A stretch of DNA of 64,000 nucleotides from a virus. Its lineage: Duplodnaviria > Caudoviricetes. Below are positions 5,339-59,837 of this stretch, in pieces (position 1 is the first letter of the stretch; each line of letters starts with the position of its first letter). Under the pieces are notes generated by a model. It searched no databases. It was not told the DNA's origin and worked only from the letters and a program-made list of their open reading frames with translations. Where the stretch lies: IMG/VR virus record IMGVR_UViG_3300025099_000001, positions 1,605 through 65,604 of that record; one strand, given 5' to 3'. A program made the position numbers and the translations under genes.

Positions 5339-6301
5339 TTAAGACAGCACTACACTTTCAACTGTAATTATAGAGCTTTCAAATATAGGCATTTGTACTC
5401 TTGCAGCAGAAGGTCCAGGAGGTTCAGGCATATTCACGCCTATATATCCTCTTTTCATAGCATCTTGTATTGCAATAGCAACAGCCCTTCCTGATCCTTG
5501 ATCTGAATGGTCAATAGTTATGTAATTATTAGTTTGACCTGTAATGTTTAAGAATATTCTGGTTTGTTCCGCACCTGCTCTATCAACTAAAACTATTTGA
5601 TCCATAAGAACCAAATAAGTAGAAGCTACTGTTGAATCAAAAACATTAAAAGCGTCTCCAATTGCACCAACTGTAGAGCTACATCTAAATCTAAAGTCGT
5701 CTATAACAACAGAAACTAATTCACTGAAGTTTTGAGTTGTATTTTCATACACATCACCTACAGTAAGAGACGTTAAAAAAGACTTTCCATTGTCGTAAAC
5801 TTCTGTTGCAGGAGCTTCAATTGTAAAATTATCATTAAACAAAGTTGAACTGTTAAATATATCAGCCGTTAATGTTAATGATGTTTCGTTAATTAAAGCA
5901 GCTACAGTAGTTTGTGTACTTGCAGTTGTATTCTTTACAATATCTCCAACTCTAACTTTACGAGTTGTAAATGTTGCAACAGCATTTAATTGCTTTTCCT
6001 TACGAATTGCATAAACTTCATTACCATCAGGGAATAAGTCAGAAGCAAAACTCACTTCTTGTCCGTTAGCATTTACAGCTGTTATAGCAGCTTGAGTGCC
6101 GTCAGTAATGTTGTATGCAATATCACCTACAACAACACCATCAGCAACAAAAGTAGCACCAGTATCAACAAGCTTATCCTGTGTGTCAGTTGTAGCAGTT
6201 CCTTCGGCTATTCCCACTGAAGCGGTTGTTCCCACTACCAACTCATTTGTACCCGAAGCTACAACTGTGTTAATAGGGATTTCTAAATATTTTGCTTTCA
6301 T
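5339..6301 (-). CDS. Virion decoration protein; paralog of the 120-aa protein with three inserted beta-repeats
   Basis: Three DxGxxFxxxxVxVGDxxxNxT repeats; C-terminal part resembles 6327..6689. Confidence 0.5.
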   Translation of the reverse strand: MKAKYLEIPINTVVASGTNELVVGTTASVGIAEGTATTDTQDKLVDTGATFVADGVVVGDIAYNITDGTQAAITAVNANGQEVSFASDLFPDGNEVYAIRKEKQLNAVATFTTRKVRVGDIVKNTTASTQTTVAALINETSLTLTADIFNSSTLFNDNFTIEAPATEVYDNGKSFLTSLTVGDVYENTTQNFSELVSVVIDDFRFRCSSTVGAIGDAFNVFDSTVASTYLVLMDQIVLVDRAGAEQTRIFLNITGQTNNYITIDHSDQGSGRAVAIAIQDAMKRGYIGVNMPEPPGPSAARVQMPIFESSIITVESVVLS

Positions 6302-7570: not shown

Positions 7571-9010
7571 TTAAGCATTGAATAGGAAGAAGTTGTTCGC
7601 ACCTAAAGTACAAACAGCTCTTTCTGTTAAGAAGTTAACTGTCATAGCATCTAAATCAGATGTAGCAGCACCTCCCGCAGAACCTGTAATCCAAGTCTTG
7701 TAACGTCTATTCTCAGTCTCAGACGCTCTGTATCTCACGTGTAAGAATGGTCTTTTAGCGTTTTTACCTAAGATTTGGTCATAAACTGATGTTGATCCTG
7801 CAGGAACTAAAAGTCCATTCACACCACCACCAATTAAACCACCTCTCATTGTAGGGTCATTTAGGTATTTCCAGTCAGACTTATAGAAGTCATAACCTCT
7901 TCTAAATCCTGTGAAACCTAAGTTTAACGCCATATCCTTATCATTGTCAAATAGACCATATGAAGTACCACCCGCTCCGTAAGAGTTTTGTGCAGCTAAC
8001 ATATCATCAATATCAAATGAGAAGTTTCTGTTACAGAAAATTACATTTTCTTCAATAGCACCTTGCTTGTCAAGTCTTTGAATCATAGAATCAAAACCTG
8101 CAAGAGTAGTTGGGTTTCCTCCACCCCAAACATTTCCTCTATTGTTTACTGCAAAGAATACACCTTCAGAACCAGCGTGTGGGAATGCACCCCCTGTAGC
8201 TGAACTTAAATAAGTTTCTGCACCAGAACCTGTTCCCGCAGGTACAGCCTCAATCATTGCAGTTTCCATGTAGTCTTCAAAACGTAATCTTGTTTCATGC
8301 TCAGACTTTAAGTACCATAGGTATCCGTTAGCACCATTTTCAGTTTGTATTTCTACCCAACCGATTTGTGCCATATCAGAACCAGAAACTTGGTAAGTAT
8401 CTTTCATGATAATAGGCTTATTAGAAAAGAATACATCATCCGCTTCTAAAGAACCGTCCATTCCTGTTGTTCCTTTTGCAAATTCAGAACCGTAAACAAA
8501 TACAGATACTGTTACACCTGCTGCAAAACTTTGTCCAGCTGCTTCGTAATACTCTACTTGGAAAGTATTAGCACCAGGAGTTGGAGCAATAGAAATAACA
8601 CCTTTATTAGATAATGTAGAACCAGGCGTGTTATCAGAAATCATAACTGTCTGACCTACTCTTAATCCAATACTTGTTTGGTTAGCAACTAATCCTGGTA
8701 TGTTAGGATCAGCAATAGTTATTACTGCTGTATTTACACCAGCTGCTTGAGCTGAAGAACAGTTTACATATTTAGTATGTAATCTTCCTTGTTCTGCCCA
8801 CTTAATCATATCTGAATTAGTTGGCATTTCAGCACCTACCATTCTTAAGAATGAAGCTACTGTTCTATTTCCATAACGCTCAAATTCCTTTTCATAAGTA
8901 TCTGGTAGATACTGATTTAAGAAATCAAAATTAGTTATGTAGTTTGTTGATAGAACTTGCTTTTGAGCTGATGGCTGTAAAGCAAATCCTGGGTTTAATT
9001 GTACTGACAT
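7571..9010 (-). CDS. Major capsid protein
   Basis: 479 aa; follows scaffold and portal; WAEQGRLH, GSEFAKGT and RPFLHVRYR motifs of Bacteroidota podophage MCPs; highly biased codons; terminator downstream. Confidence 0.85.
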   Translation of the reverse strand: MSVQLNPGFALQPSAQKQVLSTNYITNFDFLNQYLPDTYEKEFERYGNRTVASFLRMVGAEMPTNSDMIKWAEQGRLHTKYVNCSSAQAAGVNTAVITIADPNIPGLVANQTSIGLRVGQTVMISDNTPGSTLSNKGVISIAPTPGANTFQVEYYEAAGQSFAAGVTVSVFVYGSEFAKGTTGMDGSLEADDVFFSNKPIIMKDTYQVSGSDMAQIGWVEIQTENGANGYLWYLKSEHETRLRFEDYMETAMIEAVPAGTGSGAETYLSSATGGAFPHAGSEGVFFAVNNRGNVWGGGNPTTLAGFDSMIQRLDKQGAIEENVIFCNRNFSFDIDDMLAAQNSYGAGGTSYGLFDNDKDMALNLGFTGFRRGYDFYKSDWKYLNDPTMRGGLIGGGVNGLLVPAGSTSVYDQILGKNAKRPFLHVRYRASETENRRYKTWITGSAGGAATSDLDAMTVNFLTERAVCTLGANNFFLFNA

Positions 9011-9030
9011 TTTTTAATTTTTTTTAAAAT

Positions 9031-10170
9031 TTATACTCGTTTTATACTTTTAATTTTGAGTCCTCTACCACTGCTTGTATCTCCAATAGCTCTTATCTTC
9101 AAACCATCTTTTGACACACTCTGAGAAGCCTGTCTGACATCCATATTAATGTTTTTTGATTTTTTAGAAACATTATCTACAGCATCAGCCATTCCTTGCT
9201 CATAAAAAAACTTAGCGTACTTTTCGGGATTCATAGCAATTGATAATGCTTTATGGTATCCCTTTGCGTCTTTAATTAAACCTTTATCGTCCATATATTT
9301 GTTGACAAAATTTGCAACATCTTTTTGAACATTTTTAATTTCCGATGCATCACCAGGTTTATAAGTAAAATTTTTATCTCCTACATTAAATTCAAAACCT
9401 TTGAATTCATTGCTAAAAACCTCATCGGTTTTTTGAAGAAACCAATCATACTTCTTTTTCTGAGCTTCTTGCACAGTTTTAGATTCATCAATGTAACTTT
9501 TATAAGCATCTAATGTTTCTCTGTCTTTGTCAGATAACCCATCCCCACTTGACTCAAGAGGAATTTTATATTTATCTTTTTGATCATTGAAATACTTTTT
9601 TGCTTTCGCAAGTTCTCTTTTCTTAGCTAATTTTCTTTTTTTAATATCTCTTGGCTCATCTAATTCTTCATCAAAACTAAATTTATCTTCTAATAAATCT
9701 TGTATATCAAAAGTATCCAAACCATCTTCAATATTAGCATAGTAATCAGCTAAAACTTGATCATCTTCCATAGTAGTGTAGTCTTTTTGTAACTTGTAAA
9801 AGTCTTCAATACCACGGCCTGTTTCTTTTTTATATTTTAAATATTTAGAAACATCTTCTGGCAACTCTTCATTTGCTTGTTGTTGTGCAAATAAATCATC
9901 AACAGAATTAATATCTCTATCATATCTATTTTTAATATATTTAAGAACGTCTTCGTCATTTAACTCTGACGAGGGAGTTTCTTCTTGAACCTGAACTTCT
10001 TCTTTTACTTCTTCTTTTTCCTCTACTTCAGGTTGTGTTTCTGTTTGTTCTACTACATTTTCCGCAGTATCTTCTTGCTCTGCGTGTTCTTTTAGAAGTT
10101 TTTCTTCTATTTCTGCTTGAGATTTATTGTCTTCAATAAACTCTACAGCTTTTACTTTAATATTATCCAT
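9031..10170 (-). CDS. Capsid scaffolding protein
   Basis: Acidic disordered N-terminus, helical, located between portal and MCP. Confidence 0.7.
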   Translation of the reverse strand: MDNIKVKAVEFIEDNKSQAEIEEKLLKEHAEQEDTAENVVEQTETQPEVEEKEEVKEEVQVQEETPSSELNDEDVLKYIKNRYDRDINSVDDLFAQQQANEELPEDVSKYLKYKKETGRGIEDFYKLQKDYTTMEDDQVLADYYANIEDGLDTFDIQDLLEDKFSFDEELDEPRDIKKRKLAKKRELAKAKKYFNDQKDKYKIPLESSGDGLSDKDRETLDAYKSYIDESKTVQEAQKKKYDWFLQKTDEVFSNEFKGFEFNVGDKNFTYKPGDASEIKNVQKDVANFVNKYMDDKGLIKDAKGYHKALSIAMNPEKYAKFFYEQGMADAVDNVSKKSKNINMDVRQASQSVSKDGLKIRAIGDTSSGRGLKIKSIKRV

Positions 10171-10223
10171 TTAATTTAATTTAATTTATACAAAGTTAAT
10201 AATTATACAATAACTTTTTTAAG

Positions 10224-12662
10224 CTATCGTGGGTCAAACTCAGCTAAGTCAAAACCGTCTAAACTATCTTCATTAGACTCAAAATTTATAGGAGGTAAAT
10301 TATTTTTACGTTGGTCTATTAATCTTGATTGTTCTGATGACTGCTGACTTATTCTTTGGTTTTTAGATTTTTCTCTATTCTGCTCACGCATATCTATTTG
10401 TGATTGTTCTAAACCCTTTAACTGCATATTCATTTGAAATTCTGTTTGCATTAAAGATTCTTTTAACGCAGCTTCATTTTTAAGTTTTTCTATTTCAAAA
10501 CCAACCTCTGCTTGTTTTATTTGCATTTTAGATTGTGTCTCCATTTGAATTTTTTGCATAGCTATTTGAGCAGCCGCTTGTTGTGACTGCATATTAATCT
10601 GAGCCTGCATCTGTTGTTCTTTTTCTTTTTGTTGTGAGTCTTGTAGTTGCTTTTGTTTTCTTTTAACTTTTAACAACTGATTAGCCATTTTTATATTTTT
10701 TAACTCTCTTATATCTATAGCGTCTTCTAAATTAATATCTTGTTTGTTTAAAGCAGTTTGTATATTTGCCTCTAATAATGCTTGCTGTTCTTCATCAGGA
10801 GAAACTTCAATAAAAATACCAAAGTCATATATATATAAGTTTTTTATATCATCTAACAACCCTACATTGTATTTTCCAATTTGTTGAGTAAATTCATCTG
10901 CAAAGTCTGAATACTCTAAAACGTCAGCTGTTCTTATAGATAATGCTTCAGCTAAAGTTTGTGTTAAATACAAGCTACCCTCTAAAATATGTCTTGTTGC
11001 AGTATTAGAGTTAAGTGCGGCTAATTTTTGAACACCCACTAAAGAGTTAGGATCAGGCGTGCTTCCATCACGTGCTTCATTTAATCCCGTTACTTGCCTA
11101 ATCATATTCATATAATGATTGTAATTACCAATTAACATTTGCATTTTTTGTGAACCACTGGAAGAAGTAAGTTGTGTAATAGGTACTTTAGCATTATTAA
11201 ACTCACCATCTTGAGTAAAACTCCTACCAATAACACTACCCGTTTGAAAATATAATCTTAAAGCATCTTCAGGGTTATATGCATTTCCTGTTCCTAAATC
11301 AACTTCGTTTAATCCATCTGCATCTATAAATACACCATCAGGTACAACTCTTGAAATTACTTGTTGTAATTTTAAATGAGTCATCTGTATTAAATCAGTA
11401 AAAGGTATCATTCTTCTTACTAAAGATTCTATATTACCTTTGTACATTCTTGGTGCTGTAGCTACATAATTAGGCATAGCGTATTGACTTGCTGACTGTG
11501 GCCTAACCATATTTTTAGCAAGCTCCCACTTTAATAATATATTAGTTCCCATTACCATTACACCATCATACCATACATCTATTTTTTTTGTTACTTTTTC
11601 AAATTTACCTTCATCCATCATTTCTTGTGGTGGATTAAATTCGTCAGTTTTAGGAACTACTTTATAATTTCCTGTTGCAGTTTGTTTCTTTTTATATACA
11701 AAAGTATTTGTGCTTTTGTAATTAAAATACATTAATGTAACTGTATCTCTATAAAACATAGAGTTTTCATACATAGCAGCAACATTATAATACTGATACC
11801 ATGCTTGACTGTATTTTGATATTTCTTCTAAGTCTTCATTAGTTAAATCAGGTTTTATTTTTAACAACTCACCAATAGGTACTGTTTTAATTTCTCCCCA
11901 ATAAAAACAATCTTTAAAGTAAGGATCTTCAGTATAGCTATAAACTACATTAGCAGGATCAACATACTCCACTCTTATCCCATCACCTAACTGAAAGTTA
12001 TGTTTTACTACAGATAAACCTAAAGTCATTAAGTCCATGTCACATCTTTTACGAGTGTGTGAATAATGATTTTCTTCTAATAATGTATTAATAGCAACTT
12101 CATTTGCTATTTCAATTGCAGGTTTATAATTCATTTGCATATAAAGCTCCATTTCTAAATCACTTTCAGGTAATTCATCAGGATTCATGCTAAACAATTT
12201 TACATCAAAATCTTTTTCTATTTGTTGAAATAAGTCTTTAGAAATAACACTTTTTTCTACCATGTTTTGAAACTCACCCCTTTTTTCTGATGACATAGCA
12301 TCTTGAGCGTATGCCTTAACAGTAAATAATCTGTCCGACATTCCATTTACTACAATATCAACAAACTTAGGAATAACAGGAACAGGTGTCCAGTCTAAAT
12401 TTAAATAAGATAAATCACCGTCTACAGCTAATTCATTTTTATATTTAGCTATGGATTGTTCTCCACGAGCATATAATCTTAAACGATTAAATTCCCACCA
12501 TTGACTGTAAAACCTACATTGGTTTACCCCTTCTTTCCTGAACCATTCATACTGAATAGCTTGACCTACTTGTAATCCAAATTCTTTAGTTTTCTTTTGA
12601 GAATCAGAAACAAACTGATCGGGAAAAGCAGCGGATTTTATATCTATACTTATTCCTTTCAT
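10224..12662 (-). CDS. Portal protein
   Basis: 812 aa; follows terminase; PVIPKFVDIVVNG motif; Gln-rich coiled-coil C-terminus (P22-like barrel). Confidence 0.85.
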   Translation of the reverse strand: MKGISIDIKSAAFPDQFVSDSQKKTKEFGLQVGQAIQYEWFRKEGVNQCRFYSQWWEFNRLRLYARGEQSIAKYKNELAVDGDLSYLNLDWTPVPVIPKFVDIVVNGMSDRLFTVKAYAQDAMSSEKRGEFQNMVEKSVISKDLFQQIEKDFDVKLFSMNPDELPESDLEMELYMQMNYKPAIEIANEVAINTLLEENHYSHTRKRCDMDLMTLGLSVVKHNFQLGDGIRVEYVDPANVVYSYTEDPYFKDCFYWGEIKTVPIGELLKIKPDLTNEDLEEISKYSQAWYQYYNVAAMYENSMFYRDTVTLMYFNYKSTNTFVYKKKQTATGNYKVVPKTDEFNPPQEMMDEGKFEKVTKKIDVWYDGVMVMGTNILLKWELAKNMVRPQSASQYAMPNYVATAPRMYKGNIESLVRRMIPFTDLIQMTHLKLQQVISRVVPDGVFIDADGLNEVDLGTGNAYNPEDALRLYFQTGSVIGRSFTQDGEFNNAKVPITQLTSSSGSQKMQMLIGNYNHYMNMIRQVTGLNEARDGSTPDPNSLVGVQKLAALNSNTATRHILEGSLYLTQTLAEALSIRTADVLEYSDFADEFTQQIGKYNVGLLDDIKNLYIYDFGIFIEVSPDEEQQALLEANIQTALNKQDINLEDAIDIRELKNIKMANQLLKVKRKQKQLQDSQQKEKEQQMQAQINMQSQQAAAQIAMQKIQMETQSKMQIKQAEVGFEIEKLKNEAALKESLMQTEFQMNMQLKGLEQSQIDMREQNREKSKNQRISQQSSEQSRLIDQRKNNLPPINFESNEDSLDGFDLAEFDPR

Positions 12663-14909
12663 TTATCTTATTAATTGACTAATGGAACTCTTATTATCAT
12701 ATCGTGCAAAGTTAACACTTATTTTTGATTTTTGTTTAGTAGGTGTGTACAGATGCTTTTGATTAGCCATTATAGCCAATCCTGAACTTATTGCAGCATC
12801 AAACCTTGTTCTGTTTGTTATATCAAACTTTGCCCAATCCTCTAATGTACGTTGAAAAGGCATAGTTCCCATAATATCAACATCTCTAAATGTACCGTCT
12901 AAATCTAACCCTATATGTTTTTCAATATAGGATTCTATTGCAGCCGCATGAGATTGTTTTACATCTTCTGATGAATTAGGAATACCACCTAATTCTCTTT
13001 CTGTTTTTGATAATTTATTATATCTTTTGTCTGGTCTATTCATACAAAATCCTCTATACCCTCTGTTTTTAAAATGATACAATAATCTTGGTTTATTATT
13101 TTCACATAATATTGGCATACCATAAAATACACAAGCCATCAATACTTCTTCAAAAAATATCTCTGCTGTTTGTGGTCGTGCAATATATTCTAAAAAAAAT
13201 TCATTTGAAGGAGCATCATCCATATTAAATTTAGTCATTCCATGCAAAGCTCCGTTAGAACCTTTTCCTACAACAACTCCTGAAATATCATAACTATCAC
13301 AACCAAACGAACCTATATGTTCGTTAGCAGGATATTTTATTCCGTGTTTCAAAAAAATTTTATTTTGTAAATGTTTTGCTGGTGTCCAAGATACTAAAAA
13401 TCTACCACTTTTATTTGGACTAAATATTACCTTACTATCTTTAACCCCATTCTCCCATTGAAATGAACCTTTTGTAGTATGCTGTCCTAAAATTAAACTA
13501 TCATTAAAATCTATTTGTTGGTAAATTTTTGTTAAATTAAACAAAGATTGTTTTGATTCATCTCTAAATGCGTGAGATTCTGTTCTTGGAAACTGACGGT
13601 AAAATTCATTAAGTGCATCAGGATCAGAAGATAATGAGTCTACTTCATTTTTCCAATAGTTTATTGCTCCTGTATTTATATCTTCACCATCCATTCCTAC
13701 TACAGTTTTTTTAGGCGTAAACAACACTGGCATACCGTATTTATCTATATATCCTTCAAAATTCCATTCCATTGGTATAAACAAATTATATAAACCTGAT
13801 TTAGTTTGTCCATTTTGATTTCTTTTAGATGCATCAGAATCTTCAAACAATTTTTTAAAATTAGCACCTCCTTTATCTAATGCATTAGAGGTTGAACCCA
13901 TCATACACTTACCTATTATTTTACTACCAAGCCTTAAACAAGTTTTAGTAACTCGCCAATTATTTAAAATATTTTCAGGCCTTTCCCACTTACCACTTTC
14001 ATCATGTAATAAGTATTGAAGTTTTTCTCCATCATATGAGTTGTCTGATGTATTCTTCCAATCTATAGTTGTGTCTAACCCGTCTAAATCTTCATTATCA
14101 GTTACATACATATTTTTTTTAGTAATTTTAGACGCAGGAACACGATAAGCTAATTCAGTTTTTGGTTTATCCATACCATCTTGTATAGGTTTAAAAAAGA
14201 AAGGATAATTATTTGAAATAGGGACTACTTTGTCTGTAAACATTTTTTTAGCATCAGCACCAGTCTTAGATAAAATACCTATACGTGCATCTCTTGTAAT
14301 GGTTGCTTGATTAACGCCTTCCGAAGAACTCATAAATGAAAAACCTGAACGTCTTATTTTTAAATAACACATACCAAAACTACGATTATCAGCTTTACAA
14401 GCTTCCCAAAAAATATAAAATATTCTATTAGCCTCTCTAAAATCAGGATGTCCAACATCTATTTTAGTCCATTGCAAATACATATAATGCGTACCTGTTA
14501 TGTAAGTAGGTATACCATTGTTTAAAAACCAATGCCCTTCCTCTCTTTTATCAAATTCTTTTTCTATATAATCTACCCAAGAATTTTTGAAAGAAACTGG
14601 CATTTCATTCCACTGAAATATAGACTGTATTCTTTTTAATACTTTTGGTTGAATTGTAGGTGTCCAAACTTGATTTTCTTTTTTTTCTTTTTGATTATCA
14701 AAAGTTTTAGGCGTTTTTGGTAATCCAATAATTACATTACTAATCTCATAGATATCTCCTAAAGTACCGTCTCTTGATATAATTACTAATTTATATTTTT
14801 CATTATAACCGTATTTCCATGTTTTAGCTTTATTTTTATTAGCCATCACACTATTAGGTATATAGTTTTTTAAAACTTTATATATACTATTTTGATCTTG
14901 ACTCTGCAA
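12663..14909 (-). CDS. terL: Terminase large subunit
   Basis: Walker A variant KIRRSGFS, Walker B LLHDESGKW, motif III GSTSN, RNase H-like GCDSYD. Confidence 0.9.
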   Translation of the reverse strand: MQSQDQNSIYKVLKNYIPNSVMANKNKAKTWKYGYNEKYKLVIISRDGTLGDIYEISNVIIGLPKTPKTFDNQKEKKENQVWTPTIQPKVLKRIQSIFQWNEMPVSFKNSWVDYIEKEFDKREEGHWFLNNGIPTYITGTHYMYLQWTKIDVGHPDFREANRIFYIFWEACKADNRSFGMCYLKIRRSGFSFMSSSEGVNQATITRDARIGILSKTGADAKKMFTDKVVPISNNYPFFFKPIQDGMDKPKTELAYRVPASKITKKNMYVTDNEDLDGLDTTIDWKNTSDNSYDGEKLQYLLHDESGKWERPENILNNWRVTKTCLRLGSKIIGKCMMGSTSNALDKGGANFKKLFEDSDASKRNQNGQTKSGLYNLFIPMEWNFEGYIDKYGMPVLFTPKKTVVGMDGEDINTGAINYWKNEVDSLSSDPDALNEFYRQFPRTESHAFRDESKQSLFNLTKIYQQIDFNDSLILGQHTTKGSFQWENGVKDSKVIFSPNKSGRFLVSWTPAKHLQNKIFLKHGIKYPANEHIGSFGCDSYDISGVVVGKGSNGALHGMTKFNMDDAPSNEFFLEYIARPQTAEIFFEEVLMACVFYGMPILCENNKPRLLYHFKNRGYRGFCMNRPDKRYNKLSKTERELGGIPNSSEDVKQSHAAAIESYIEKHIGLDLDGTFRDVDIMGTMPFQRTLEDWAKFDITNRTRFDAAISSGLAIMANQKHLYTPTKQKSKISVNFARYDNKSSISQLIR

Positions 14910-35541: not shown

Positions 35542-35614
35542 GTTTCTCTATGTTTTTAATTATGTTGTTTGTTTCTGTTTTTACACCAAACAGTTTTAAA
35601 ATAAACTCTATCAT
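35522..35614 (-). CDS. 30-aa hypothetical peptide
   Basis: ATGA overlap with the groEL stop; MIEFILKLFGVK... Confidence 0.35.
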   Translation of the reverse strand: MIEFILKLFGVKTETNNIIKNIEKREEKKA

Positions 35615-51939: not shown

Positions 51940-52201
51940 ATAAAGATTGTTTTAGTTTTTCTTGGATTTCCAGTATTTCAGCACACTTTTCATACTCTTC
52001 AGTATAGATAAAATAATTAATAAGCTCACCATATATAGGGTCGTTGTGTCTTAATTTTTCTTTATTAGGATCATGTAAAAACCATAACTCATCCTCTGTA
52101 TCTAAAAAATCTATTAAACTTCTTTTCCCTGTAATTAGTTCATAGGTGTTGTTAAAACACTTGTCTTCATCAAAATTATTCTTCTCCATATATTTGCTCA
52201 T
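51932..52201 (-). CDS. Small protein with UVR-like C-terminal motif
   Basis: YFIYTEEYEKCAEILE resembles a UVR motif. Confidence 0.55.
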   Translation of the reverse strand: MSKYMEKNNFDEDKCFNNTYELITGKRSLIDFLDTEDELWFLHDPNKEKLRHNDPIYGELINYFIYTEEYEKCAEILEIQEKLKQSLFN

Positions 52202-55200
52202 ACATTTCAGGGTTAGTACGTTTCATTTCTGACTTACTCATTTTCTTACTACTATTTTTTAATTTTTTATTTTCTTGTATTTGCCGATACAAATCAGGAT
52301 TAGTTTGTTTTATATACTTCATATCTTCAGAACTATAAGCAGTCCCTGTTCCTGGACGATAGGACGGGCTAATACCAAATATATCATAAAATGCTTCGTT
52401 CTTGTCCTTACCTTGTCCTGCAAAATAATTATACATTCCTACAAAAGGATCAACCTGTGCTCCTAATAAAATCTCTACTAATGGCCTTAGACTTTTATCA
52501 ACTCTTCCATCTTTTAATCCTTTATTTACTTTTCTCATAACAGACTTGATAGGATTTACAACATCATCAGCATATCCTGAAGACTTACCTAAAGCTCTGT
52601 TTCTTGTTTCTTGTACTGCTGCACCAAAAAAAGGTATTTGATAAAGTAAGTTTAAACCATACATAGCTTCTTTTAATCTGTCCATAGCTTCTTCTTCGTC
52701 TTTATCATTACCCATAAATTTAAACATATTTGCTGCCAAAGCAAACATTACGTTAGCACCTGCAAAGTTTAAAACAAAAGCTCTTATGTCTTGTCTTCTT
52801 GGGGCTTTTTTACGAAATATAGCTCCCATAATATTACTTGTAGAACTCATAACTTTATTTATTTGTAAAAACAACGTACTACCAAACATAGTAAAAGCTC
52901 TTGTCATTTCATTTTGACTTTGCTGTAAAGGAATTTTATCTGTCTCTCTTCTTGACTGCTGAGTTGCATTATAATTATTAAAAGCTTCAGCCGCTTTAGC
53001 TTTGGACATTCCATTTGCAATATTAGCTTCGTAATTTACCATATAACCCATGACACCCATAATATCTCCCATTACCGTAGGCATAGCTGCACCTTTTTGA
53101 AACAGTGTAATAATTTTATTTTTAAAAGCTTTATAATCTTTTTCATTCAAAGCTTGTCTTAAATCTTTAATTCTTCTTTCAATTGGAGCTGTAGTTCTAC
53201 TTCCTGTTTCCAATCTGTATAAGTCTCCTTCTAATCCTTTACGCAAACGGTCTCTAAAGTCTGGAGATATTTCTTGTGCCAATTTCATGTAGTAAGGCAG
53301 CCTTGCAACAACTTTAGCCATACCAATCATAAAACCACCTGCACCACCCTTACCTTTATATTCTTCAAAGGCATTAACAAAAGATGTTGATTGTTTTAAT
53401 AATTGAATTGCTTTAAATGATAAAGCAAAACCTGTAAATTTACGTTGCAGTTTTGCAAGAACACCTTGATCCTTTACTCCCATAGATGGGTTTATAGCTA
53501 AATTTACTGATTCGTTTACTCTATCAGCAATACCTAAACGTGTTAGTAAAGTATTTACAGCAGGAACATTAAAAACTGCTTGTAAATTTTTTACTCCTAA
53601 TGCATAAGCCTTATATCTTTCCATTTGTGCAACATGGTTTTCTAAAGTTTCTACAAAATCAGGACCTGGATCTATTTCTCCAAACTCGTCTGTTCTTTCT
53701 TTTAATGACGGAGCAGTCTCAGCACTAAATACTTTTGAAAAATTACCACCCTTTATTAAATCTTGAGTTACATTTGAAGCTGATATACTTTTTGTAGGAA
53801 AATAGTTTTCTACAAAACCTAAATCAGTATAGTTAGCTTGTTTATATATATTGTTTATACTATTAAAGTAATCTGTACTTAACCAGTTTACAATTTTATC
53901 TACAAACTCTACAGCATCTGTTCCTATGGCTCCTTCTATTTGTGATATTTGATATTGGCCGAATCCTGAGTTTTCTAATTTTATTCTTTGAGTTTCGTTT
54001 TTACTTAAAGCGTATATTCTCATTAACTGTGTAACACTAAATACTTCTTGTGCTTTCCCTGTGGCTTTATTAATATATTTTGTATCTCCAAAGTCTATTT
54101 TTACAGGCTCAAATGGTAATTTTTGTTTTAAATCTTGATAGCTTTCTATACCTTCAATACTTGCGGCAATAGAATTTATCATTGTCTGTGCATTATAATA
54201 TCCTCTCAAGGCTTTAGTATGCATTCTATTTAATCCTTGATAAACAGTATCGTAGAAAAATGTATTTTTTAAATTTACATTATCTAAAATATTCATTAGA
54301 GTTCCTAAATGAGAAAGTCTGTTTCGTAAATAAGCACGTATACCTACTGTAGATGTAAATTTAAATTGATTAAAAAAGTTATTAATTTTACTTCTTGTGT
54401 CTCCTAAAAATCCTTCTTTATCTAAAGCATCAAAGTCTCTTTTATTTTTTAACTCTCCCTTACCATCATCATTAAACATTTCAGGATAGTTTTGTCTTAT
54501 TTGATTAGTTGCTGATTCAAAAATTTCATTATTAACTTCAGCTCGTTCTAATCTTGCCATATTTAACATAGCAATAGATTCTTTTTTAGCATCTTTCATT
54601 TTCTCTAATATATCAGTAACGGCCTCTAAGTCTAAGTTATATATATTATTAAATGTATCAAAAGCTAAAACACGAGCTAACAAGGTTTGTTCTCTTAAAG
54701 TAAGAGGTTCACCTCTTTTTTGTTTCTCTAATGTTATTTGAGTTTCTTGTTGATTAGAATCAATTAATGCAGAAATTGATAATAGCTTTTCTCCTCTGGA
54801 AACATTGTCTGGTGTCAAGGCAGCTTGTAACACTGATCTTACTTCTTTAAAAAATGCAACGCCTCCACCTTCTATGTTGGACGCTATTGGCCTTGATGAT
54901 TTAGTAGAAGCAGACTTGGCTAATTTACTAACCATAGCTTTTATCTCTTTAATCTTTTTTATCTTAACTTGTTTTCTTTTTCTTTCAACTGCGTTAAATA
55001 TTTTTTCACCTACAGACAAAATAGAATCAGGTCCTGCTGTTATAATTTTGTTTAGCATTCTATCTAATTCTGCCTTAGTAAACGTAGCTTCTTTTGGCAC
55101 GTACTTTCTAATTAATTGCTTTAACTGAAGTTGTATTTTTCTTAAATCTCTTTGTCCTTGTTTTTTTATAAACAAGTCTCTTTTCAAACGGCTAATACGT

Positions 55201-58200
55201 TTACTTATCTCTACACTTTGTACTTTACCTAACACACCTTTATAAGATATTTCTATGTTGTTTTGTATGTTTTTATCTTGTGCTTTAAATATGTCATTGT
55301 TTCTTAATATTTCAAAAGCTTTCTTTTCAGTTTGTATACGAGTAGCATCAGGCTTTTCTACTAAAAATTTATTTAACTCATATGATATTTGATTAAATAA
55401 AGTTTGACCTTCACTTATACCACCGTTTACTAATTGAAACTCCATTGGTATATCAGTAAAAGCTCCTTCTTTTTGTTCTAATGCAGCACGAGCTTCGTCT
55501 GTAGATAGTTTTCTGTTGTTGCGTAAATATTCAAATATAGCTGCCTCACTATAGTCTAATCCTCTTGCTTTAGCAACCACATCATTTATAGTATCTTGTT
55601 TGTTAAATATTCTTTTCTCTTGTGTTTCTCCTGTATACACTGATGTCTTGTCTGGTGCTTTATAACTACCCTCTACAACAGACACATTACGAACTGCGTA
55701 ATCTTTTCCTGATTTTTGCACAAGAACTTTACTTCCCGACTCTCTGTTTTGTGGTAAATGTAGTATTGGTTTACTACCGTCCTTTAATGATATATGAAAT
55801 GGATAGCTTGGGTGTGTATCTTTCTTGACTTCTACAGGACCATTAATTTCAACTATAGCATATATATCTCCCGTATTTAATCCTTTAGTTAATTTTTCAG
55901 CTGCCACTTGAGCAAGTAAGTCAACTAATGCTTGAGAACCAGGTTTTCCTGAAACTAATTTAGTTGTACCTTTACCAACTGATCTTGATTTGTCACCTCC
56001 TAAAAACTCAGCTATAGCAGCTTGGTCTTCTTTAGGTAGGTTTTTAGCTATTTCACCTACAATATCTTTAACCACAAATCCTCTTTTTTCAAACGTAGTA
56101 GTGTTTGGATTAGTAAAATATTTTTGTATATCAGTTTTTAAATCTCTGGCACTTTGTCTTAAATTTATAGTACCACCTGCTTTTTTTACAGCTGAAGAAA
56201 CTGCAGTTCTAAAATTAGATGCAGATATTAATTTTTTATCTAACATAGTATTTAGAATAGCTAAAGTAGAGTTAACACCTGAAGCACTACTGACTAATTT
56301 TGAGTCTGTTCCTTTTGTTAAAGTTAAAAAAGCCCTACCTCCATTTGCTTTTAATTGTTCATTTAATCCTCTCGCTATAGAGTTTGCTGTTCCTTTTTTT
56401 CCCGATGCCCAAACATCGCCAAATTTAGTTACAAAAAACACACCACCTTCTCCTTCAAAAATAACCTTACCATTAAACTTTATTTCACCTGCAAGCATAT
56501 CATCAGGAGATGTAATTACCGTTTCAAAACCTTCTAAGAAATTTACATTTTTAGGTTGAGTAACTAAACCTTTTTTAATCATTTCTGCAATACTATCTTG
56601 CTGGGTGTAGCTTACTTCAAACCCACCTACAACCATTGTTTTTAAAGCAGTTGATGGATTTTTTACTTCTTTACCACCTGCAAATAAATCAAGTTGTTTT
56701 ACATCTGACTTAGTAATTGTTTCTCCTGTTTGTACTTTACCTGCTACTACGTTTAATAAATCAATCAAAGCCTTATCAGTTCCAATAACATCTTCTGCTG
56801 TAAGCCCTAATAAATTACTTAGTTTGCTTATAAACCTTTTTATAATAGATTTTTGAGGTGCTTTTAAAGATGTATAGTTATTTGACAAATAACTAAAGAT
56901 TTCAGCCATATATTCTTCATTTGCATATGCTAATCTTGACGCATCATCTTTATTTCTTTCTTTATATAACGCAATATATTCGTCAATTTTCTTTTTTATT
57001 TCAGGGTCTAAATCAGCCTTTGCAAGAGCCTTCATCATTCTGTCTGTTAAAACTGCTATTTTACTTTCTGACCCTAATTTGTTTCTAAGTATAGCATGAA
57101 ATATTTCATGACTTAATACACGATCATTTGCAAGTTCAGCATTAATATGAATTACATTATCACCTCTAAAAACACCAGCAGACCTACCTTTTGGATTCCC
57201 AATAGCATTCATATAGTCTACCTCATTCTCATGTATTACTACCATCACATCAGGAAGTAATTTTTTTAATGCAGCTAAAGCTCTTTTAGCAGGTTTTATA
57301 AATTTTTCTGAGTTTATTCTTTTTGATTTGTCTGACTCGTTTACATAAGCGTTAGGTGCTATAGCTTTAAGTTCTTTTATTTTCGTTTTCTTTTGCGTGT
57401 CTTTTTTCTGTTGCTCAACTTTGTCTTTGACTTTCTTTCTGGTAGGCTTTTTACGTCCAGTGTTTCGTTTAGAAACTTTTGAAATAGGCTTGGCTTGTTT
57501 TTTGCCATCCACCTTAGTTGTGCTTTGCTTTGTAGTGGCATCGGGTTTAGTTTTTAATTCAGTTGGTGCTGTTAATTTAATAATACTTTTATCTAATACA
57601 ATAGTTTCAGGTGCTATAGGATTTGTAACCACAATAGCATCGTGGCCTGCTTCTATAATAGGTTTTAGTTTTTCTACTGTCCATACATCAGATTTTTCTA
57701 CTTTATACGGATTCTTTGGTGTAATTGTTGCTGTAAATTTATTACGAGTACCATCCGCTTTATACGTTCCTGCTCTATTAGCAGGACCAAAAAAGGCTAA
57801 GTTTGCAGGTGCAGGACCAAAAGTGGTATTGTTAGTGTTTTCAAAATCTAATGGTGCAAACAAATCTTGCTCAGACTCTTCACCGTATCTAATCATTGCC
57901 TCACCTTCATCTACTTTTTCTCCTACTACTTCTCCTTGTTCATTTGTAACTGTCTCTTCTGTATCTAATGCTACAGCTTCGGCTAAGTCTTGTGCTTCTT
58001 CTTTAGTTTCAGGAGTAGCTGTAATTTCTGTTTCTGTTTCTGTTTCTGTTTCAGCTACTTTTGCGGCAGCATCTCTTTTATCTTTTGCTACTAAATTTCT
58101 TGCATAAGCTCTTTCTTCTGAAGTAGCTGTATCAGTATTGGGTTTTAATTCTTTTAACTTTTTATCTATTTCTTCTTCAGTTATTTCTGTTTCTTCAACT

Positions 58201-59837
58201 TTAGTTTCTTTTGCTTCTTCAACCGCATTCATTTCCTCTATAATCTCAGCCCTTCTTTTCTTTGCAGGTTGTGATTTATTCCCTTCTAAACTATTTAATT
58301 CTTCTTGTAACGGAACTAATTTATCTAATTTTTCTTGACTTAACTTTGGGTTTGCATCTAAAATTTCTTTTTGTGCTGTTGATTTGCTATGAATTTTTTT
58401 CTTTCTATCAGCCGCTACTTTTTCTAACTCTGGATTGTTTTTAATAGTTATTTCAGCTGCGGCAAATTCTTCGTCTGTAGAATTATACACTAAATCTTCC
58501 ATTATTTCAGGATCAACACGTGTTAAATCTTTTTGACTCTCATCAAAATTTCCTTTATTTATATAGTATTTAGGTGATTTATATGCTGCTATTCCAAGTG
58601 TAGCAGGTAAAGTTGCTGTTCCCGCAAACCCTTCAAATAAAACTTCAGCTGCGTCCATTTCTTGATCAGCTGCTAATCGCCCTCCTACTTCACCAAGAGA
58701 ACCTCCCGCTGCCTCTATTGCTGCAACTTGCCCTGTCGCTTTAACTTTCTTACCTAAACCGTATGCTTTTCCACCTAATGTTCTTGCTCCTACTTTTATA
58801 CCTATCTTAGAAGCCATACCGTCAATAGCACCAATAACAAGTCCTCTTCCTGCTGATTTGTTTCTTATACTACTCATTGCTTCTTTATCTTCTAAGACTT
58901 TTCGTACCCCTGCTTCATCTAACTTTAAACCTCTGTCAACAACTTCTTTTTGTAATAATTCAGCAAAAGTTAATCCTGTTTCTAATGTTATTCCTGCACC
59001 CATAAAAAAACCTGCAGCACTTCCTATAGGTGAAGCAACAGAACCTGCAGCAGCACCTGCAGCAGCACCTGCTAATACAGTGGGGTTTACCATAGCACTC
59101 ATGGAAGAAACAAATAATTGAGGAATAGTGGATGGGTTATTCCAAACTCCCTTAACCCAACCCCAAGCACCACCACCGTTAGCTTGGTATATACGATTAA
59201 AGTCTTTCATCTCATCTGAAACACCTGCACTTTGTAATTGTCTTTGTGCTACTAAAAAGTCTTGTATGTCTTCTGAGGTTACTTCAGCTCCAATACGGGA
59301 TTTACCTAATATTTCTAATGACTCATCAATAGTGCCTCCCTGCACTTGTCCTTGAACACCTGCACGCCACATATCGCCAAAAAAATCTGTAAATTCATTT
59401 TTACCAAATACTCTTTCAATTGCAGTATCCTTCTCACCAACTGATAAGTCTTGCATTTGAGCATCGGCATAAACAGGGCTGTAGGGTTTAACCTCAGCCA
59501 TTTCAAAATCAAGGTTTTGACTTTGTAAATAATCCGAAGTACCAACTCCTTCTTGTTCCGTGATAACTTCCTCCGTAATTTCCGTGTCCCCAGAACCATC
59601 TGAAACCACTTCTGGACTTTCTTGAGTCGGTTCTTTTTTTTTTACAGGTTGCTGAAATCCAACTAATATATTAAAATCGTCTTCAGACTTTTGATATCCA
59701 TTTTTTCTTGCAAGTCCATACATCTGATTTACTGCTTCAGGATTTTGTTGCATTAAAATAGTAAACTCTTCTAAAGATTTTTTATAACCATCTTGTTGAG
59801 CTAACCCATATAAAGTTTCTAAAGCTTCTTTATTCAT
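52176..59837 (-). CDS. Giant internal virion/ejection polyvalent protein
   Basis: 2553 aa; Gly/Ala hydrophobic segments; zincin HEIFH..EEYMAE; ART-like segment; follows pilot and GNAT genes as in T7 gp13-16. Confidence 0.7.
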   Translation of the reverse strand: MNKEALETLYGLAQQDGYKKSLEEFTILMQQNPEAVNQMYGLARKNGYQKSEDDFNILVGFQQPVKKKEPTQESPEVVSDGSGDTEITEEVITEQEGVGTSDYLQSQNLDFEMAEVKPYSPVYADAQMQDLSVGEKDTAIERVFGKNEFTDFFGDMWRAGVQGQVQGGTIDESLEILGKSRIGAEVTSEDIQDFLVAQRQLQSAGVSDEMKDFNRIYQANGGGAWGWVKGVWNNPSTIPQLFVSSMSAMVNPTVLAGAAAGAAAGSVASPIGSAAGFFMGAGITLETGLTFAELLQKEVVDRGLKLDEAGVRKVLEDKEAMSSIRNKSAGRGLVIGAIDGMASKIGIKVGARTLGGKAYGLGKKVKATGQVAAIEAAGGSLGEVGGRLAADQEMDAAEVLFEGFAGTATLPATLGIAAYKSPKYYINKGNFDESQKDLTRVDPEIMEDLVYNSTDEEFAAAEITIKNNPELEKVAADRKKKIHSKSTAQKEILDANPKLSQEKLDKLVPLQEELNSLEGNKSQPAKKRRAEIIEEMNAVEEAKETKVEETEITEEEIDKKLKELKPNTDTATSEERAYARNLVAKDKRDAAAKVAETETETETEITATPETKEEAQDLAEAVALDTEETVTNEQGEVVGEKVDEGEAMIRYGEESEQDLFAPLDFENTNNTTFGPAPANLAFFGPANRAGTYKADGTRNKFTATITPKNPYKVEKSDVWTVEKLKPIIEAGHDAIVVTNPIAPETIVLDKSIIKLTAPTELKTKPDATTKQSTTKVDGKKQAKPISKVSKRNTGRKKPTRKKVKDKVEQQKKDTQKKTKIKELKAIAPNAYVNESDKSKRINSEKFIKPAKRALAALKKLLPDVMVVIHENEVDYMNAIGNPKGRSAGVFRGDNVIHINAELANDRVLSHEIFHAILRNKLGSESKIAVLTDRMMKALAKADLDPEIKKKIDEYIALYKERNKDDASRLAYANEEYMAEIFSYLSNNYTSLKAPQKSIIKRFISKLSNLLGLTAEDVIGTDKALIDLLNVVAGKVQTGETITKSDVKQLDLFAGGKEVKNPSTALKTMVVGGFEVSYTQQDSIAEMIKKGLVTQPKNVNFLEGFETVITSPDDMLAGEIKFNGKVIFEGEGGVFFVTKFGDVWASGKKGTANSIARGLNEQLKANGGRAFLTLTKGTDSKLVSSASGVNSTLAILNTMLDKKLISASNFRTAVSSAVKKAGGTINLRQSARDLKTDIQKYFTNPNTTTFEKRGFVVKDIVGEIAKNLPKEDQAAIAEFLGGDKSRSVGKGTTKLVSGKPGSQALVDLLAQVAAEKLTKGLNTGDIYAIVEINGPVEVKKDTHPSYPFHISLKDGSKPILHLPQNRESGSKVLVQKSGKDYAVRNVSVVEGSYKAPDKTSVYTGETQEKRIFNKQDTINDVVAKARGLDYSEAAIFEYLRNNRKLSTDEARAALEQKEGAFTDIPMEFQLVNGGISEGQTLFNQISYELNKFLVEKPDATRIQTEKKAFEILRNNDIFKAQDKNIQNNIEISYKGVLGKVQSVEISKRISRLKRDLFIKKQGQRDLRKIQLQLKQLIRKYVPKEATFTKAELDRMLNKIITAGPDSILSVGEKIFNAVERKRKQVKIKKIKEIKAMVSKLAKSASTKSSRPIASNIEGGGVAFFKEVRSVLQAALTPDNVSRGEKLLSISALIDSNQQETQITLEKQKRGEPLTLREQTLLARVLAFDTFNNIYNLDLEAVTDILEKMKDAKKESIAMLNMARLERAEVNNEIFESATNQIRQNYPEMFNDDGKGELKNKRDFDALDKEGFLGDTRSKINNFFNQFKFTSTVGIRAYLRNRLSHLGTLMNILDNVNLKNTFFYDTVYQGLNRMHTKALRGYYNAQTMINSIAASIEGIESYQDLKQKLPFEPVKIDFGDTKYINKATGKAQEVFSVTQLMRIYALSKNETQRIKLENSGFGQYQISQIEGAIGTDAVEFVDKIVNWLSTDYFNSINNIYKQANYTDLGFVENYFPTKSISASNVTQDLIKGGNFSKVFSAETAPSLKERTDEFGEIDPGPDFVETLENHVAQMERYKAYALGVKNLQAVFNVPAVNTLLTRLGIADRVNESVNLAINPSMGVKDQGVLAKLQRKFTGFALSFKAIQLLKQSTSFVNAFEEYKGKGGAGGFMIGMAKVVARLPYYMKLAQEISPDFRDRLRKGLEGDLYRLETGSRTTAPIERRIKDLRQALNEKDYKAFKNKIITLFQKGAAMPTVMGDIMGVMGYMVNYEANIANGMSKAKAAEAFNNYNATQQSRRETDKIPLQQSQNEMTRAFTMFGSTLFLQINKVMSSTSNIMGAIFRKKAPRRQDIRAFVLNFAGANVMFALAANMFKFMGNDKDEEEAMDRLKEAMYGLNLLYQIPFFGAAVQETRNRALGKSSGYADDVVNPIKSVMRKVNKGLKDGRVDKSLRPLVEILLGAQVDPFVGMYNYFAGQGKDKNEAFYDIFGISPSYRPGTGTAYSSEDMKYIKQTNPDLYRQIQENKKLKNSSKKMSKSEMKRTNPEMYEQIYGEE
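57377..57541 (-). CDS. Overprinted small basic protein (+1 frame inside the giant ORF)
   Basis: MPLQSKAQLRWMAKNKPSLFQKFLNETLDVKSLPERKSKTKLSNRKKTRKRKRK. Confidence 0.6.
   Translation of the reverse strand: MPLQSKAQLRWMAKNKPSLFQKFLNETLDVKSLPERKSKTKLSNRKKTRKRKRK

What the first reader, a model, noticed from the sequence alone, without database searches (positions are those of the whole stretch)
57377..57541. Overprinted gene nested in the +1 frame of the giant virion protein
Seen: a complete 54-codon ORF (ATG 57541, TAA 57377) with an A-rich leader (GAATTAAAAACTAAA) lies inside the 2553-aa gene, in a low-complexity linker between its ART-like and zincin regions. Its product MPLQSKAQLRWMAKNKP..ET....LPERK resembles, from memory, a small phage protein family (MPFxSKAQxRxxxAxxP) that elsewhere occurs as a stand-alone gene. 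It also resembles this genome's cluster of tiny basic proteins. Standard gene callers would miss it.
Basis: partly seen in the sequence, partly recalled or inferred. Interest (0 to 1): 0.75.

Follow-up and report, generated by a model that had tools for sequence, protein, structure and literature searches.

The report
Small conserved gene nested in giant virion gene
A 54-codon gene hidden in a shifted reading frame inside a giant phage virion gene is real, kept by selection, and belongs to a widespread small phage protein family that gene finders routinely miss when it is nested like this.

Summary
The ORF exists exactly as described (ATG 57541, TAA 57377, minus strand, +1 frame of the 2553-aa ORF 59837..52176). 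Its length alone is unremarkable. Its conservation is not. All 10 related loci that cover the region, and 5 of 5 near-complete relatives, keep an intact copy in the same frame. A control +1 ORF in the same gene decays. Over the overlap, changes silent in the small frame but replacing in the host frame run about 4 times faster than the reverse (206/1815 vs 66/2372). The giant protein's "linker" is therefore the passenger. The peptide belongs to a large family. A profile finds 319 called small proteins and 678 longer proteins, and 103 of the 120 longer ones listed carry the motif at residue 1. The family has no Pfam entry and is linked to phrog_1375 only through relatives. In 80 viral loci it is nested in giant virion genes (29), nested in a scaffold-position gene (30), stand-alone (19, some next to portal genes) or fused (2). 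It is always +1 of its host, the one frame that silent changes can always open. Each of 11 genomes or records searched has one copy. Function is inferred only: a helical hairpin with a basic tail, probably a virion or assembly-associated module. Translation is untested.

The parts
57377..57541 (-). Nested 54-codon gene (ATG 57541, stop TAA 57379-57377), in the +1 frame of the giant gene. The product has a helical hairpin (residues 6-26) and a Lys/Arg-rich tail.
   Evidence: Searches give sequence, ORF and translation. Searches show it intact in all relatives examined. Searches show selection acting in this frame. One search gives a family profile hit at E 1.7e-17. One search is the AlphaFold2 model (mean pLDDT 78.7, first 30 residues 85-92).
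57542..57566 (-). A-rich, weakly structured leader of the nested start; no Shine-Dalgarno motif.
   Evidence: One search gives the sequence. In one search the predicted folding energy of -25..+20 is -0.4 kcal/mol, against a mean of -4.37 for the 79 out-of-frame ATGs of the gene; 6% are as open. A-rich leaders are shared by 55 nested copies. SD-like words occur in 5 of 32 giant-nested, 0 of 23 scaffold-nested and 8 of 19 stand-alone copies.
52176..59837 (-). Host gene: 2553-aa giant virion protein. Its residues about 766-820 are the frame-0 reading of the nested gene (a low-complexity linker).
   Evidence: phrog_32588 on residues 130-609; full-length homologs L002 and L003; homology to the 3694-aa 'structural protein' of Flavobacterium phage elemoF_6-3D. 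The host frame has 0 stops across the overlap in 55 of 55 nested copies.

Best explanation
Window 57541..57377 (minus strand) is a real protein-coding gene of 54 codons nested in the +1 frame of the 2553-aa virion gene. It is this phage's only copy of a widespread small phage protein or module. The family has an N-terminal motif starting MPFKS/MPLQS..AQ, an aromatic residue, ET(P), LP.K, and then a Lys/Arg tail. The predicted fold is a two-helix hairpin with a disordered basic tail. Shown here: the frame and its start and stop are kept in every relative examined; purifying selection acts on the small frame; and the host frame over these 55 codons is constrained only to stay open. Inferred: the small gene is the older one. 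The giant gene (and, in other phages, a scaffold-position gene) extended or fused across it. This used the one frame that can always be freed of stops by silent T-to-C changes at the small gene's third codon positions, which explains why the small gene is always +1 of its host. Inferred: it is translated from its own AUG on the late mRNA by Shine-Dalgarno-independent initiation at an A-rich, unstructured leader, as is usual in Bacteroidia hosts. The genome is syntenic with Flavobacterium phages. Function is inferred at about 35-40% odds. It would be a head-assembly or virion-associated basic module that binds nucleic acid or a head component. It would work free here, and elsewhere as the N-terminal module of larger phage proteins, some of them carrying lysozyme, MuF, NUDIX or SET domains.
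For: Conservation. The nested ORF is intact in 10 of 10 homologous loci covering the region and in 5 of 5 relatives that are at least 99% complete. It always starts at the same Met, with a stop 0-9 codons upstream in its frame, and in the 9 copies aligned it always ends in a basic tail (R49, K52, R53, K54 invariant).

Frame of selection. These figures come from 55 distinct nested copies, their first 27 codons, and 24 independent nearest pairs with each pair counted in both directions. Silent-in-small/replacing-in-host changes are 206 of 1815 possible (0.1135). Replacing-in-small/silent-in-host changes are 66 of 2372 (0.0278). Replacing-in-both changes are 144 of 5831 (0.0247). Fisher's test on halved counts gives p = 3e-15. 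Mean pairwise amino-acid identity is 0.542 in the small frame and 0.378 in the host frame. Variability peaks at the small gene's third codon position. Window against L010: small frame 52%, host frame 21%.

Family. phmmer with the peptide alone finds 14 proteins at E <= 1e-3 in 1.84 billion (best 3.4e-6). A profile of 9 nested copies finds 319 called small proteins (E <= 0.01 among 860 candidates). The wider profile finds 678 longer proteins (E <= 1e-3 among 8000 scored). Of the 120 listed, 103 have the motif at residue 1.

Single copy. There is exactly one match in each of 11 of 11 genomes or records searched.

Contexts. The 80 loci split into 29 giant-nested, 30 scaffold-position-nested, 19 stand-alone and 2 fusions. 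All 59 nested copies are +1 of their host.

Frame logic. A stop-free host frame is attainable by silent changes for 74 of 74 peptides, and the other frame for 56 of 74. Stand-alone copies average 3.89 stops in the host frame. Phe3 before an A-starting codon is TTC 24 times and TTT 0 times in nested copies, against 13 and 5 in stand-alone copies.

Leader. See, and the abstract of Baez et al. 2019 (PMC6847099).

Function hints. Stand-alone copies lie directly next to portal-like genes (L027, L094; their homologous neighbours are in L043, L048 and L057). The scaffold-position host follows the portal gene. Fusions occur to the MuF head domain, GH24 lysozyme, NUDIX, SET and others.
Against: There is no direct evidence of translation. 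No RNA, ribosome-profiling or peptide data were available. The window copy has C rather than A at -3 of its start. The abstract of Baez et al. names A at -3 as a positive determinant. The Pfam, NCBIfam and PHROG models do not hit the window peptide itself. The link to phrog_1375 is only through stand-alone relatives. Function rests on gene neighbourhood and fusions only. Structure searches found nothing but uncharacterised small phage proteins and no solved structure. The 45-column tree is poorly resolved, so the number of independent nesting events is uncertain. Substitution classes in overlapping frames are not independent of mutation bias, and transitions and transversions were not weighted separately.
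Confidence: 0.85

Rival explanations
1. Relic: a once stand-alone small gene was swallowed when the flanking genes fused. It is no longer translated, and its sequence persists only because the giant protein needs an open linker.
For: The host frame is open through it in all nested copies. The window start lacks A at -3. No expression data exist. A decayed second copy with in-frame stops lies upstream in L005 and L011, so copies can decay.
Against: The substitution pattern within nested copies alone shows strong purifying selection on the small frame. In the giant class the figures are 117/903 against 33/1216, and in the scaffold class 78/842 against 30/1055. Start, stop and basic tail are kept in all relatives, even where the host-frame peptide is only 21-39% identical. 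The nested copy is the only copy in each of the 11 records searched.
Confidence: 0.05
2. Frameshift product: the small frame is reached by, or left through, programmed ribosomal frameshifting. This would give either a truncated giant protein with an alternative C-terminus, or the small module joined to the C-terminal 1730 residues.
For: The Lys-rich tail contains A-rich runs that could be slippery. One database protein (P0007, 96 aa, 1 member on 1 contig) joins the small module in frame to a downstream giant-protein domain. In-frame N-terminal fusions of the module are common.
Against: A stop lies 0-9 codons upstream of the conserved Met in the small frame, which leaves almost no room to enter by frameshift. 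Stand-alone homologs begin at the same Met. The small frame's own C-terminal tail and stop are conserved, so ribosomes read it to its end. A-runs are expected in any Lys-rich sequence. No conserved downstream stimulatory structure was looked for.
Confidence: 0.05
3. Chance ORF: the conservation of the +1 peptide is only the shadow of a conserved motif in the giant protein.
For: The host-frame peptide over the overlap shows a recurring pattern (D/N-A-x-x-x-x-S-T..V) across distant homologs. The ORF length alone is not unusual.
Against: Changes that are silent in the host frame are no more frequent than changes replacing in both frames (0.0278 against 0.0247), while changes silent in the small frame are 4 times more frequent. 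Stand-alone family members encode the same peptide with stops in the host frame in 17 of 19 cases. The same peptide is nested in an unrelated scaffold-position gene. A control +1 ORF in the same gene is not conserved.
Confidence: 0.02

Closest known systems
Rz1 nested in Rz (lambda-type spanin genes); comparison from established knowledge, not from a call
   Same: A small late phage gene lies wholly embedded in the +1 frame of a larger late gene on the same strand. Both are protein-coding, and annotation often misses the small one.
   Different: Rz1 is a lipoprotein that pairs functionally with its host gene product. The peptide here has no signal peptide, lipobox or hydrophobic segment. It belongs to a family that is common as a stand-alone gene and as an N-terminal module. 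It is nested in at least two unrelated host genes.
phrog_1375 (PHROGs family of unknown function) and the unnamed small-protein clusters found
   Same: Stand-alone relatives of the window peptide hit phrog_1375 (7 of 8 at E <= 1, best 1.6e-6). They share length, the N-terminal motif and the basic tail.
   Different: The window peptide itself does not hit phrog_1375. PHROGs holds only annotated genes, so nested copies are not represented there.
Pfam DUF3008 (PF11450)
   Same: It is the nearest named cluster by language-model features (score 0.86, 37% of members carry PF11450). It is also a family of small viral and bacterial proteins.
   Different: The HMM does not match any of 17 family members scanned or the window genome. 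A score of 0.86 is a lead only.
Polyvalent, virion-packaged multidomain phage proteins and MuF-fused effectors (Iyer et al. 2017, PMC5512222; passages read)
   Same: The host gene is a giant multidomain virion protein in a portal-terminase phage. The small module is fused to MuF and to enzymatic domains in other phages.
   Different: The passages found describe no nested gene and no such N-terminal module. The word 'overlapping' occurs 0 times and 'reading frame' once in the main text.

Membership tests
Small phage protein/module family defined here by profiles A1 and A2 (MPFKS-type) | Significant match to the family profile | tested here: met
   The A2 profile against the window's genome gives one match, at the nested ORF, E 1.7e-17, positions 1-53 of 54. 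A2 includes the window peptide as one of its 121 rows. Independently, phmmer with the peptide alone finds 14 proteins at E <= 1e-3 in 1.84 billion.
Small phage protein/module family defined here by profiles A1 and A2 (MPFKS-type) | Invariant or near-invariant residues: M1, P2, S5, Q8, P17, L33 (invariant); F3, K4, R9, M12, A20, W23, E26, T27, P34 (at least 90%) | tested here: met
   One search lists these columns. The window peptide has all six invariant residues, and M12, E26, T27 and P34 of the near-invariant ones. It differs at F3 (L), K4 (Q), R9 (L), A20 (F) and W23 (F).
Small phage protein/module family defined here by profiles A1 and A2 (MPFKS-type) | Two-helix core followed by a Lys/Arg-rich tail | tested here: met
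   AlphaFold2 with the 121-row alignment gives helices 6-15 and 17-26, block pLDDT of 87, 92 and 85 for the first 30 residues, and a tail at 58-77.
phrog_1375 | Match to the PHROG profile | tested here: not met
   The window peptide gets no phrog_1375 hit, and there are 0 matches in the genome. Stand-alone relatives do match, so the relation is transitive only.
Pfam DUF3008 (PF11450) | Match to the Pfam profile at or near the cut-off of 24 bits | tested here: not met
   0 hits among 17 family members scanned; 0 matches in the genome.
Functional nested (overlapping) protein-coding gene | ORF, start and stop retained in homologs of the host gene | tested here: met
   10 of 10 loci covering the region and 5 of 5 near-complete relatives. 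The control ORF is not retained.
Functional nested (overlapping) protein-coding gene | Purifying selection on the nested frame beyond what the host frame imposes | tested here: met
   0.1135 against 0.0278 per possible change; Fisher p = 3e-15 on halved counts.
Functional nested (overlapping) protein-coding gene | Direct evidence of translation (initiating ribosomes or peptide) | not testable with these tools
   No RNA holder was listed. No proteomic or ribosome-profiling data are at hand.
Ribosomal protein bS21 (considered because small basic phage-encoded bS21 is known in marine phages; recalled, not from a call) | Match to a ribosomal S21 profile or fold | tested here: not met
   No Pfam hit of any kind. 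The Foldseek PDB search returned no ribosomal protein.

The most novel reading that the evidence does not exclude
The family is a general N-terminal 'address' module of tailed phages. It would attach itself and its fused cargo enzymes (lysozyme, MuF, NUDIX, SET and others) to the packaged DNA or to a head component, for incorporation into the capsid and delivery into the host. The free 40-60-aa form would be a small basic internal virion protein. Its repeated engulfment by neighbouring morphogenesis genes, always in the one frame that silent changes can open, would be a general and so far unnoticed route by which structural genes fuse across small genes. A whole class of conserved nested phage genes would then be missing from annotation.
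Probability: 0.25. Interest if true: 0.85.

Novelty: new variant of a known kind. Interest (0 to 1): 0.8.

Why it matters
Nested genes in tailed phages are known from only a few cases. Standard gene callers forbid them, so their true frequency is unknown. Here one old, single-copy small gene family is nested in two unrelated virion-assembly genes across many uncultured marine phages and in cultured Flavobacterium phages. None of the 7 nested products checked is present among about 15 billion predicted proteins. There are three consequences. (1) A recurring 'motif' in giant virion and scaffold-position proteins is really the shadow of another gene, so domain and disorder annotations of those linkers are misleading. 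(2) The case gives a clean natural example of which frame is used when a long gene grows over a short one, and why (third-position T-to-C changes are always silent). (3) A cultured host-phage pair (Elemovirus on Flavobacterium sp. BAL314) carries a nested copy. Shine-Dalgarno-independent internal initiation, and the function of a very common unknown phage module, therefore become directly testable.

Tried and rejected
Searches that found nothing with the window peptide or region:
- Pfam, PHROGs and NCBIfam on the window peptide.
- blastn of the region and tblastn of the peptide against 50,697 phage records. The low-complexity filter may have hidden matches.
- A word-seeded search with the peptide alone.
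- Profile against PDB sequences: only a 13-residue chance match, E 0.025.
- Foldseek against PDB: nothing below E 4.
- Foldseek against BFVD: only uncharacterised small phage proteins, best E 4.5e-3.
- The DUF3008 and phrog_1375 models against the genome: 0 matches.

Searches on neighbours and fusions that led nowhere:
- Pfam and PHROGs on the scaffold-position host and on fusion proteins: no family.
- tblastn of the L066 neighbours: no match.

Complex prediction of the window's portal (812 aa, 19-row alignment) with the small protein: no verdict, score 0.00 in both runs. This counts neither for nor against binding.

Sequencing runs: no RNA holder was listed.

Literature: the motif search, the overlapping-gene and nested-gene searches, the Elemovirus search and the DUF3008 search listed no paper on this gene. 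I saw only listings for these. Supplements were not available.

Ideas rejected:
- bS21-like ribosomal protein: no profile or fold match.
- Spanin or lysis lipoprotein: no signal or lipobox.
- Charge complementarity between the small protein and its host-frame shadow: the shadow is basic in the window but acidic in scaffold hosts.
- Paralogy with other tiny basic proteins of this genome.
Full report
OBSERVATION. On the minus strand an ATG at 57541 opens a 54-codon frame that ends at TAA 57379-57377. It is preceded by gaattaaaaactaaacccg. It lies inside the 2553-codon ORF 59837..52176, 2296 nt after that ORF's start, which is the +1 frame. The product is MPLQSKAQLRWMAKNKPSLFQKFLNETLDVKSLPERKSKTKLSNRKKTRKRKRK. 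The length alone means little. Within the giant gene, one search lists 18 alternative-frame ORFs of 40 aa or more, and 11 others are at least as long as this one.

CONSERVATION IN HOMOLOGS OF THE GIANT GENE. A scan of viral contigs with the giant protein returned 11 loci, at 95% to 33% identity. In all 10 that cover the region (L002-L005, L007-L012) the +1 frame holds an intact ORF of 50-57 codons. Each starts with the same Met-Pro, with a stop 0-9 codons upstream in that frame. In the 9 copies aligned (window plus 8 loci; L008 and L011 match L007 and L005), each ends in a basic tail. L006 ends at its contig edge before the region. The small peptide stays 40-91% identical to the window's over its whole length. 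The host-frame peptide over the same bases falls much further. Over the first 27 codons, window against L012 is 70% in the small frame and 36% in the host frame. Against L010 the figures are 52% and 21%. Five further relatives that are at least 99% complete were reached through portal homologs. Each has exactly one family match. In each, the copy sits in a frame-shifted position inside an ORF that is open over the whole 3.1-kb locus.

Two controls behave as chance ORFs should. The other same-strand nested ORF (59599..59315, 94 aa) is open only in the 95%-identical L002 and has 1-6 stops in six other homologs. The 236-aa antisense ORF has at least 9 stops in every antisense frame in L003.

WHICH FRAME IS SELECTED. 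I collected 55 distinct nested copies (32 in giant genes, 23 in a second host, described below). I compared their gap-free first 27 codons in 24 independent nearest-neighbour pairs, counting each pair in both directions. The counts are:
- Silent in the small frame, replacing in the host frame: 206 of 1815 possible (0.1135).
- Replacing in the small frame, silent in the host frame: 66 of 2372 (0.0278).
- Replacing in both frames: 144 of 5831 (0.0247).

On halved counts the first contrast gives Fisher p = 3e-15. The pattern holds separately in giant hosts (117/903 against 33/1216) and in scaffold-position hosts (78/842 against 30/1055). Being silent in the host frame confers no advantage (0.0278 against 0.0247). 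So the host amino-acid sequence here shows no detectable selection beyond staying open. Column variability peaks at the small gene's third codon position (0.85, 0.69, 1.10 bits). The giant protein's 'low-complexity linker' is therefore the passenger reading of the small gene. Caveat: I did not weight transitions and transversions.

THE FAMILY. No curated family matches the window peptide (Pfam, PHROGs, NCBIfam). An exhaustive phmmer search of 1.84 billion representatives found 14 proteins at E <= 1e-3, best 3.4e-6. A profile of nine nested copies (A1) found 319 called proteins of 27-100 aa at E <= 0.01 among 860 candidates. These are 40-60-aa proteins with the same N-terminal motif, an aromatic residue, ET(P), LP.K and a basic tail. 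Seven of eight such stand-alone proteins hit phrog_1375, of unknown function (best 1.6e-6). The phrog_1375 and DUF3008 models do not hit the window copy. DUF3008 is only the nearest named cluster by language-model features, at 0.86.

With a 121-row alignment (A2), AlphaFold2 predicts two helices (6-15 and 17-26; pLDDT 85-92 over the first 30 residues) and a disordered tail. Fold searches return only uncharacterised small phage proteins and no solved structure.

Searching longer proteins with A2 gave 678 hits at E <= 1e-3 among 8000 scored candidates. Of the 120 listed, 103 carry the motif at residue 1, 5 within the first 30 residues, 4 near the C-terminus and 2 internally; 6 did not match my pattern. 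Most have no Pfam domain. A minority carry GH24 lysozyme, Phage_Mu_F, NUDIX with a Mu-like protease, SET, PF13298, PF18823, PF18905 and others.

WHERE THE GENE SITS IN OTHER PHAGES. A scan of viral contigs with A1 kept 80 loci. By my script:
- 29 loci are nested in same-strand ORFs of 700 codons or more. Two of these, L082 and L083, are GC-rich with a strong SD and are doubtful.
- 30 loci are nested near the 5' end of an ORF of about 400 codons.
- 19 loci are stand-alone.
- 2 loci are N-terminal fusions.

All 59 nested copies have the same relation to their host: the small gene is +1 of it. The 400-codon host lies between the portal gene and a capsid-like structural gene. That is the scaffold position. 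It is unrelated to the giant protein by BLAST. Its homologs in cultured Flavobacterium, Cellulophaga and Maribacter phages match only the part downstream of the nested region.

Stand-alone copies lie 4 nt after a portal-like gene (L027; portal identified, homologous neighbours in L043 and L048). Others overlap the start of a portal-like gene (L094; L057 is 73% identical). Two sit right at the end of a giant gene (L023 overlaps it by 17 nt, L042 follows it by 7 nt). In Streptomyces phage FlowerPower the annotated 72-aa gene 48 lies between a small 'peptidase' gene and the holin gene. In phage C75C1 a copy lies unannotated in an intergenic gap.

The window's genome is a complete 65.6-kb record with terminal repeats. 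It is syntenic with Flavobacterium phage elemoF_6-3D (terminase 45%, portal 47% identity). That cultured phage carries an unannotated 42-codon copy in the +1 frame of its 3694-aa 'structural protein' gp18. Every genome or record searched with the profile has exactly one copy (11 of 11). In the window's genome it is the nested one. A 45-column tree needs at least 10 changes of context, but it is poorly resolved.

WHY ALWAYS +1. In the host frame, every possible stop begins with the third base of a small-gene codon. NNT and NNC are always synonymous, so any such stop can be removed without touching the small protein. A dynamic check shows a stop-free host frame is attainable for 74 of 74 family peptides. 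The other frame is attainable for only 56 of 74. Stand-alone copies carry on average 3.89 stops in the would-be host frame, and 17 of 19 have at least one. Nested copies carry none. Phe3 before an A-starting codon is TTC 24 times and TTT 0 times when nested, against 13 and 5 when stand-alone. This fits a history in which the small gene came first and the larger genes grew or fused across it. That is the reverse of classical overprinting. The order of events is inferred, not shown.

EXPRESSION (INFERRED). Nested copies have A-rich leaders and rarely an SD-like word: 5 of 32 in giant hosts, 0 of 23 in scaffold hosts, and 8 of 19 stand-alone. Around the window's nested AUG the predicted structure is almost nil, at -0.4 kcal/mol against a mean of -4.37 for the 79 out-of-frame AUGs of the gene; 6% are as open. 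Bacteroidetes lack SD-led initiation and rely on low structure and upstream adenines such as A at -3 (abstract of Baez et al. 2019, PMC6847099). The window has C at -3, which is a point against. A frameshift route is unlikely. The upstream stop, the conserved Met and the conserved C-terminus all fit a free product. No translation data exist, and no RNA run was listed.

FUNCTION (INFERRED, ABOUT 35-40%). The evidence is as follows:
- One copy per genome.
- Location in or beside portal, scaffold-position and giant virion genes.
- Frequent use as the N-terminal module of larger phage proteins, including MuF-type head proteins and enzymes of the kind that polyvalent virion proteins carry (passages of Iyer et al. 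2017, PMC5512222).
- A basic tail.

Together these suggest a head-assembly or virion-associated module that binds nucleic acid or a head component. A portal-peptide complex prediction gave no verdict and counts neither way.

NOVELTY. Searches of the paper library by motif, by overlapping-gene and nested-gene terms, by the Elemovirus name and by DUF3008 listed nothing on this gene (listings only). None of 7 nested products is present as a called protein among about 15 billion. Nested +1 genes are a known kind in phages (Rz1 in Rz, recalled). What is new is an old, widespread, single-copy gene family nested again and again in different morphogenesis genes, together with a simple code-based reason for the frame.

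VERDICT. I put the probability that this is a selected, translated nested gene at about 0.85. Function remains a hypothesis.

Noticed in passing
L005 and L011, about 90 codons upstream of their nested copy (host residues about 700-715): A second, decayed copy of the small gene in the same +1 frame. It begins MPFKR and is then interrupted by stops. This suggests past duplication and decay inside the giant gene.
   Followed up: no
window 7571-14909 (minus strand) and 35611-37200 (minus strand): The genome is syntenic with the Flavobacterium phage genus Elemovirus: terminase 12663..14909, portal 10224..12662, scaffold-like 9031..10170 and capsid-like 7571..9010. It also encodes a GroEL-like chaperonin (phrog_5725, E 1e-134). 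The host is therefore probably a member of the Flavobacteriia.
   Followed up: partly
host-frame peptides over the nested gene in giant and scaffold-position proteins (window residues about 766-800; L029, L041, L092 and others): A recurring acidic pattern (D/N-A-x-x-E-Q-S-T-x-E-V..) appears in many marine phage structural proteins. It is simply the frame-0 reading of the nested gene, so it should not be treated as a protein motif.
   Followed up: yes
L014 (Phage C75C1, OQ984151.1) 6001-6105: An unannotated stand-alone 34-codon family member with a clear Shine-Dalgarno sequence lies in the gap between CDS0043 and CDS0044. The same phage has a giant gene running across the record's origin.
   Followed up: partly
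protein P0007 (96 aa, one contig): The small module's first 41 or so residues continue in frame into a domain that is downstream giant-protein sequence in L010-type phages. This is either a natural fusion variant or a one-base assembly error.
   Followed up: no
window about 57100-57130 (minus strand), giant protein residues about 905-913: An HExxH motif (SHEIFHAIL) lies roughly 85 residues after the nested gene's end. This region is homologous to residues 1464-2039 of the Elemovirus giant protein. The zincin assignment was not tested.
   Followed up: no
scaffold-position host proteins (L019, L025, L032, L089), upstream of the nested gene: A conserved KKPGRPKKL-type AT-hook-like motif lies in the host frame just before the nested gene. 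This supports translation of the host starting upstream of the nested ORF.
   Followed up: no
viral contigs: 350 portal relatives at 73-96% identity were found. This Elemovirus-like group is very common in the metagenomic virus collection.
   Followed up: no
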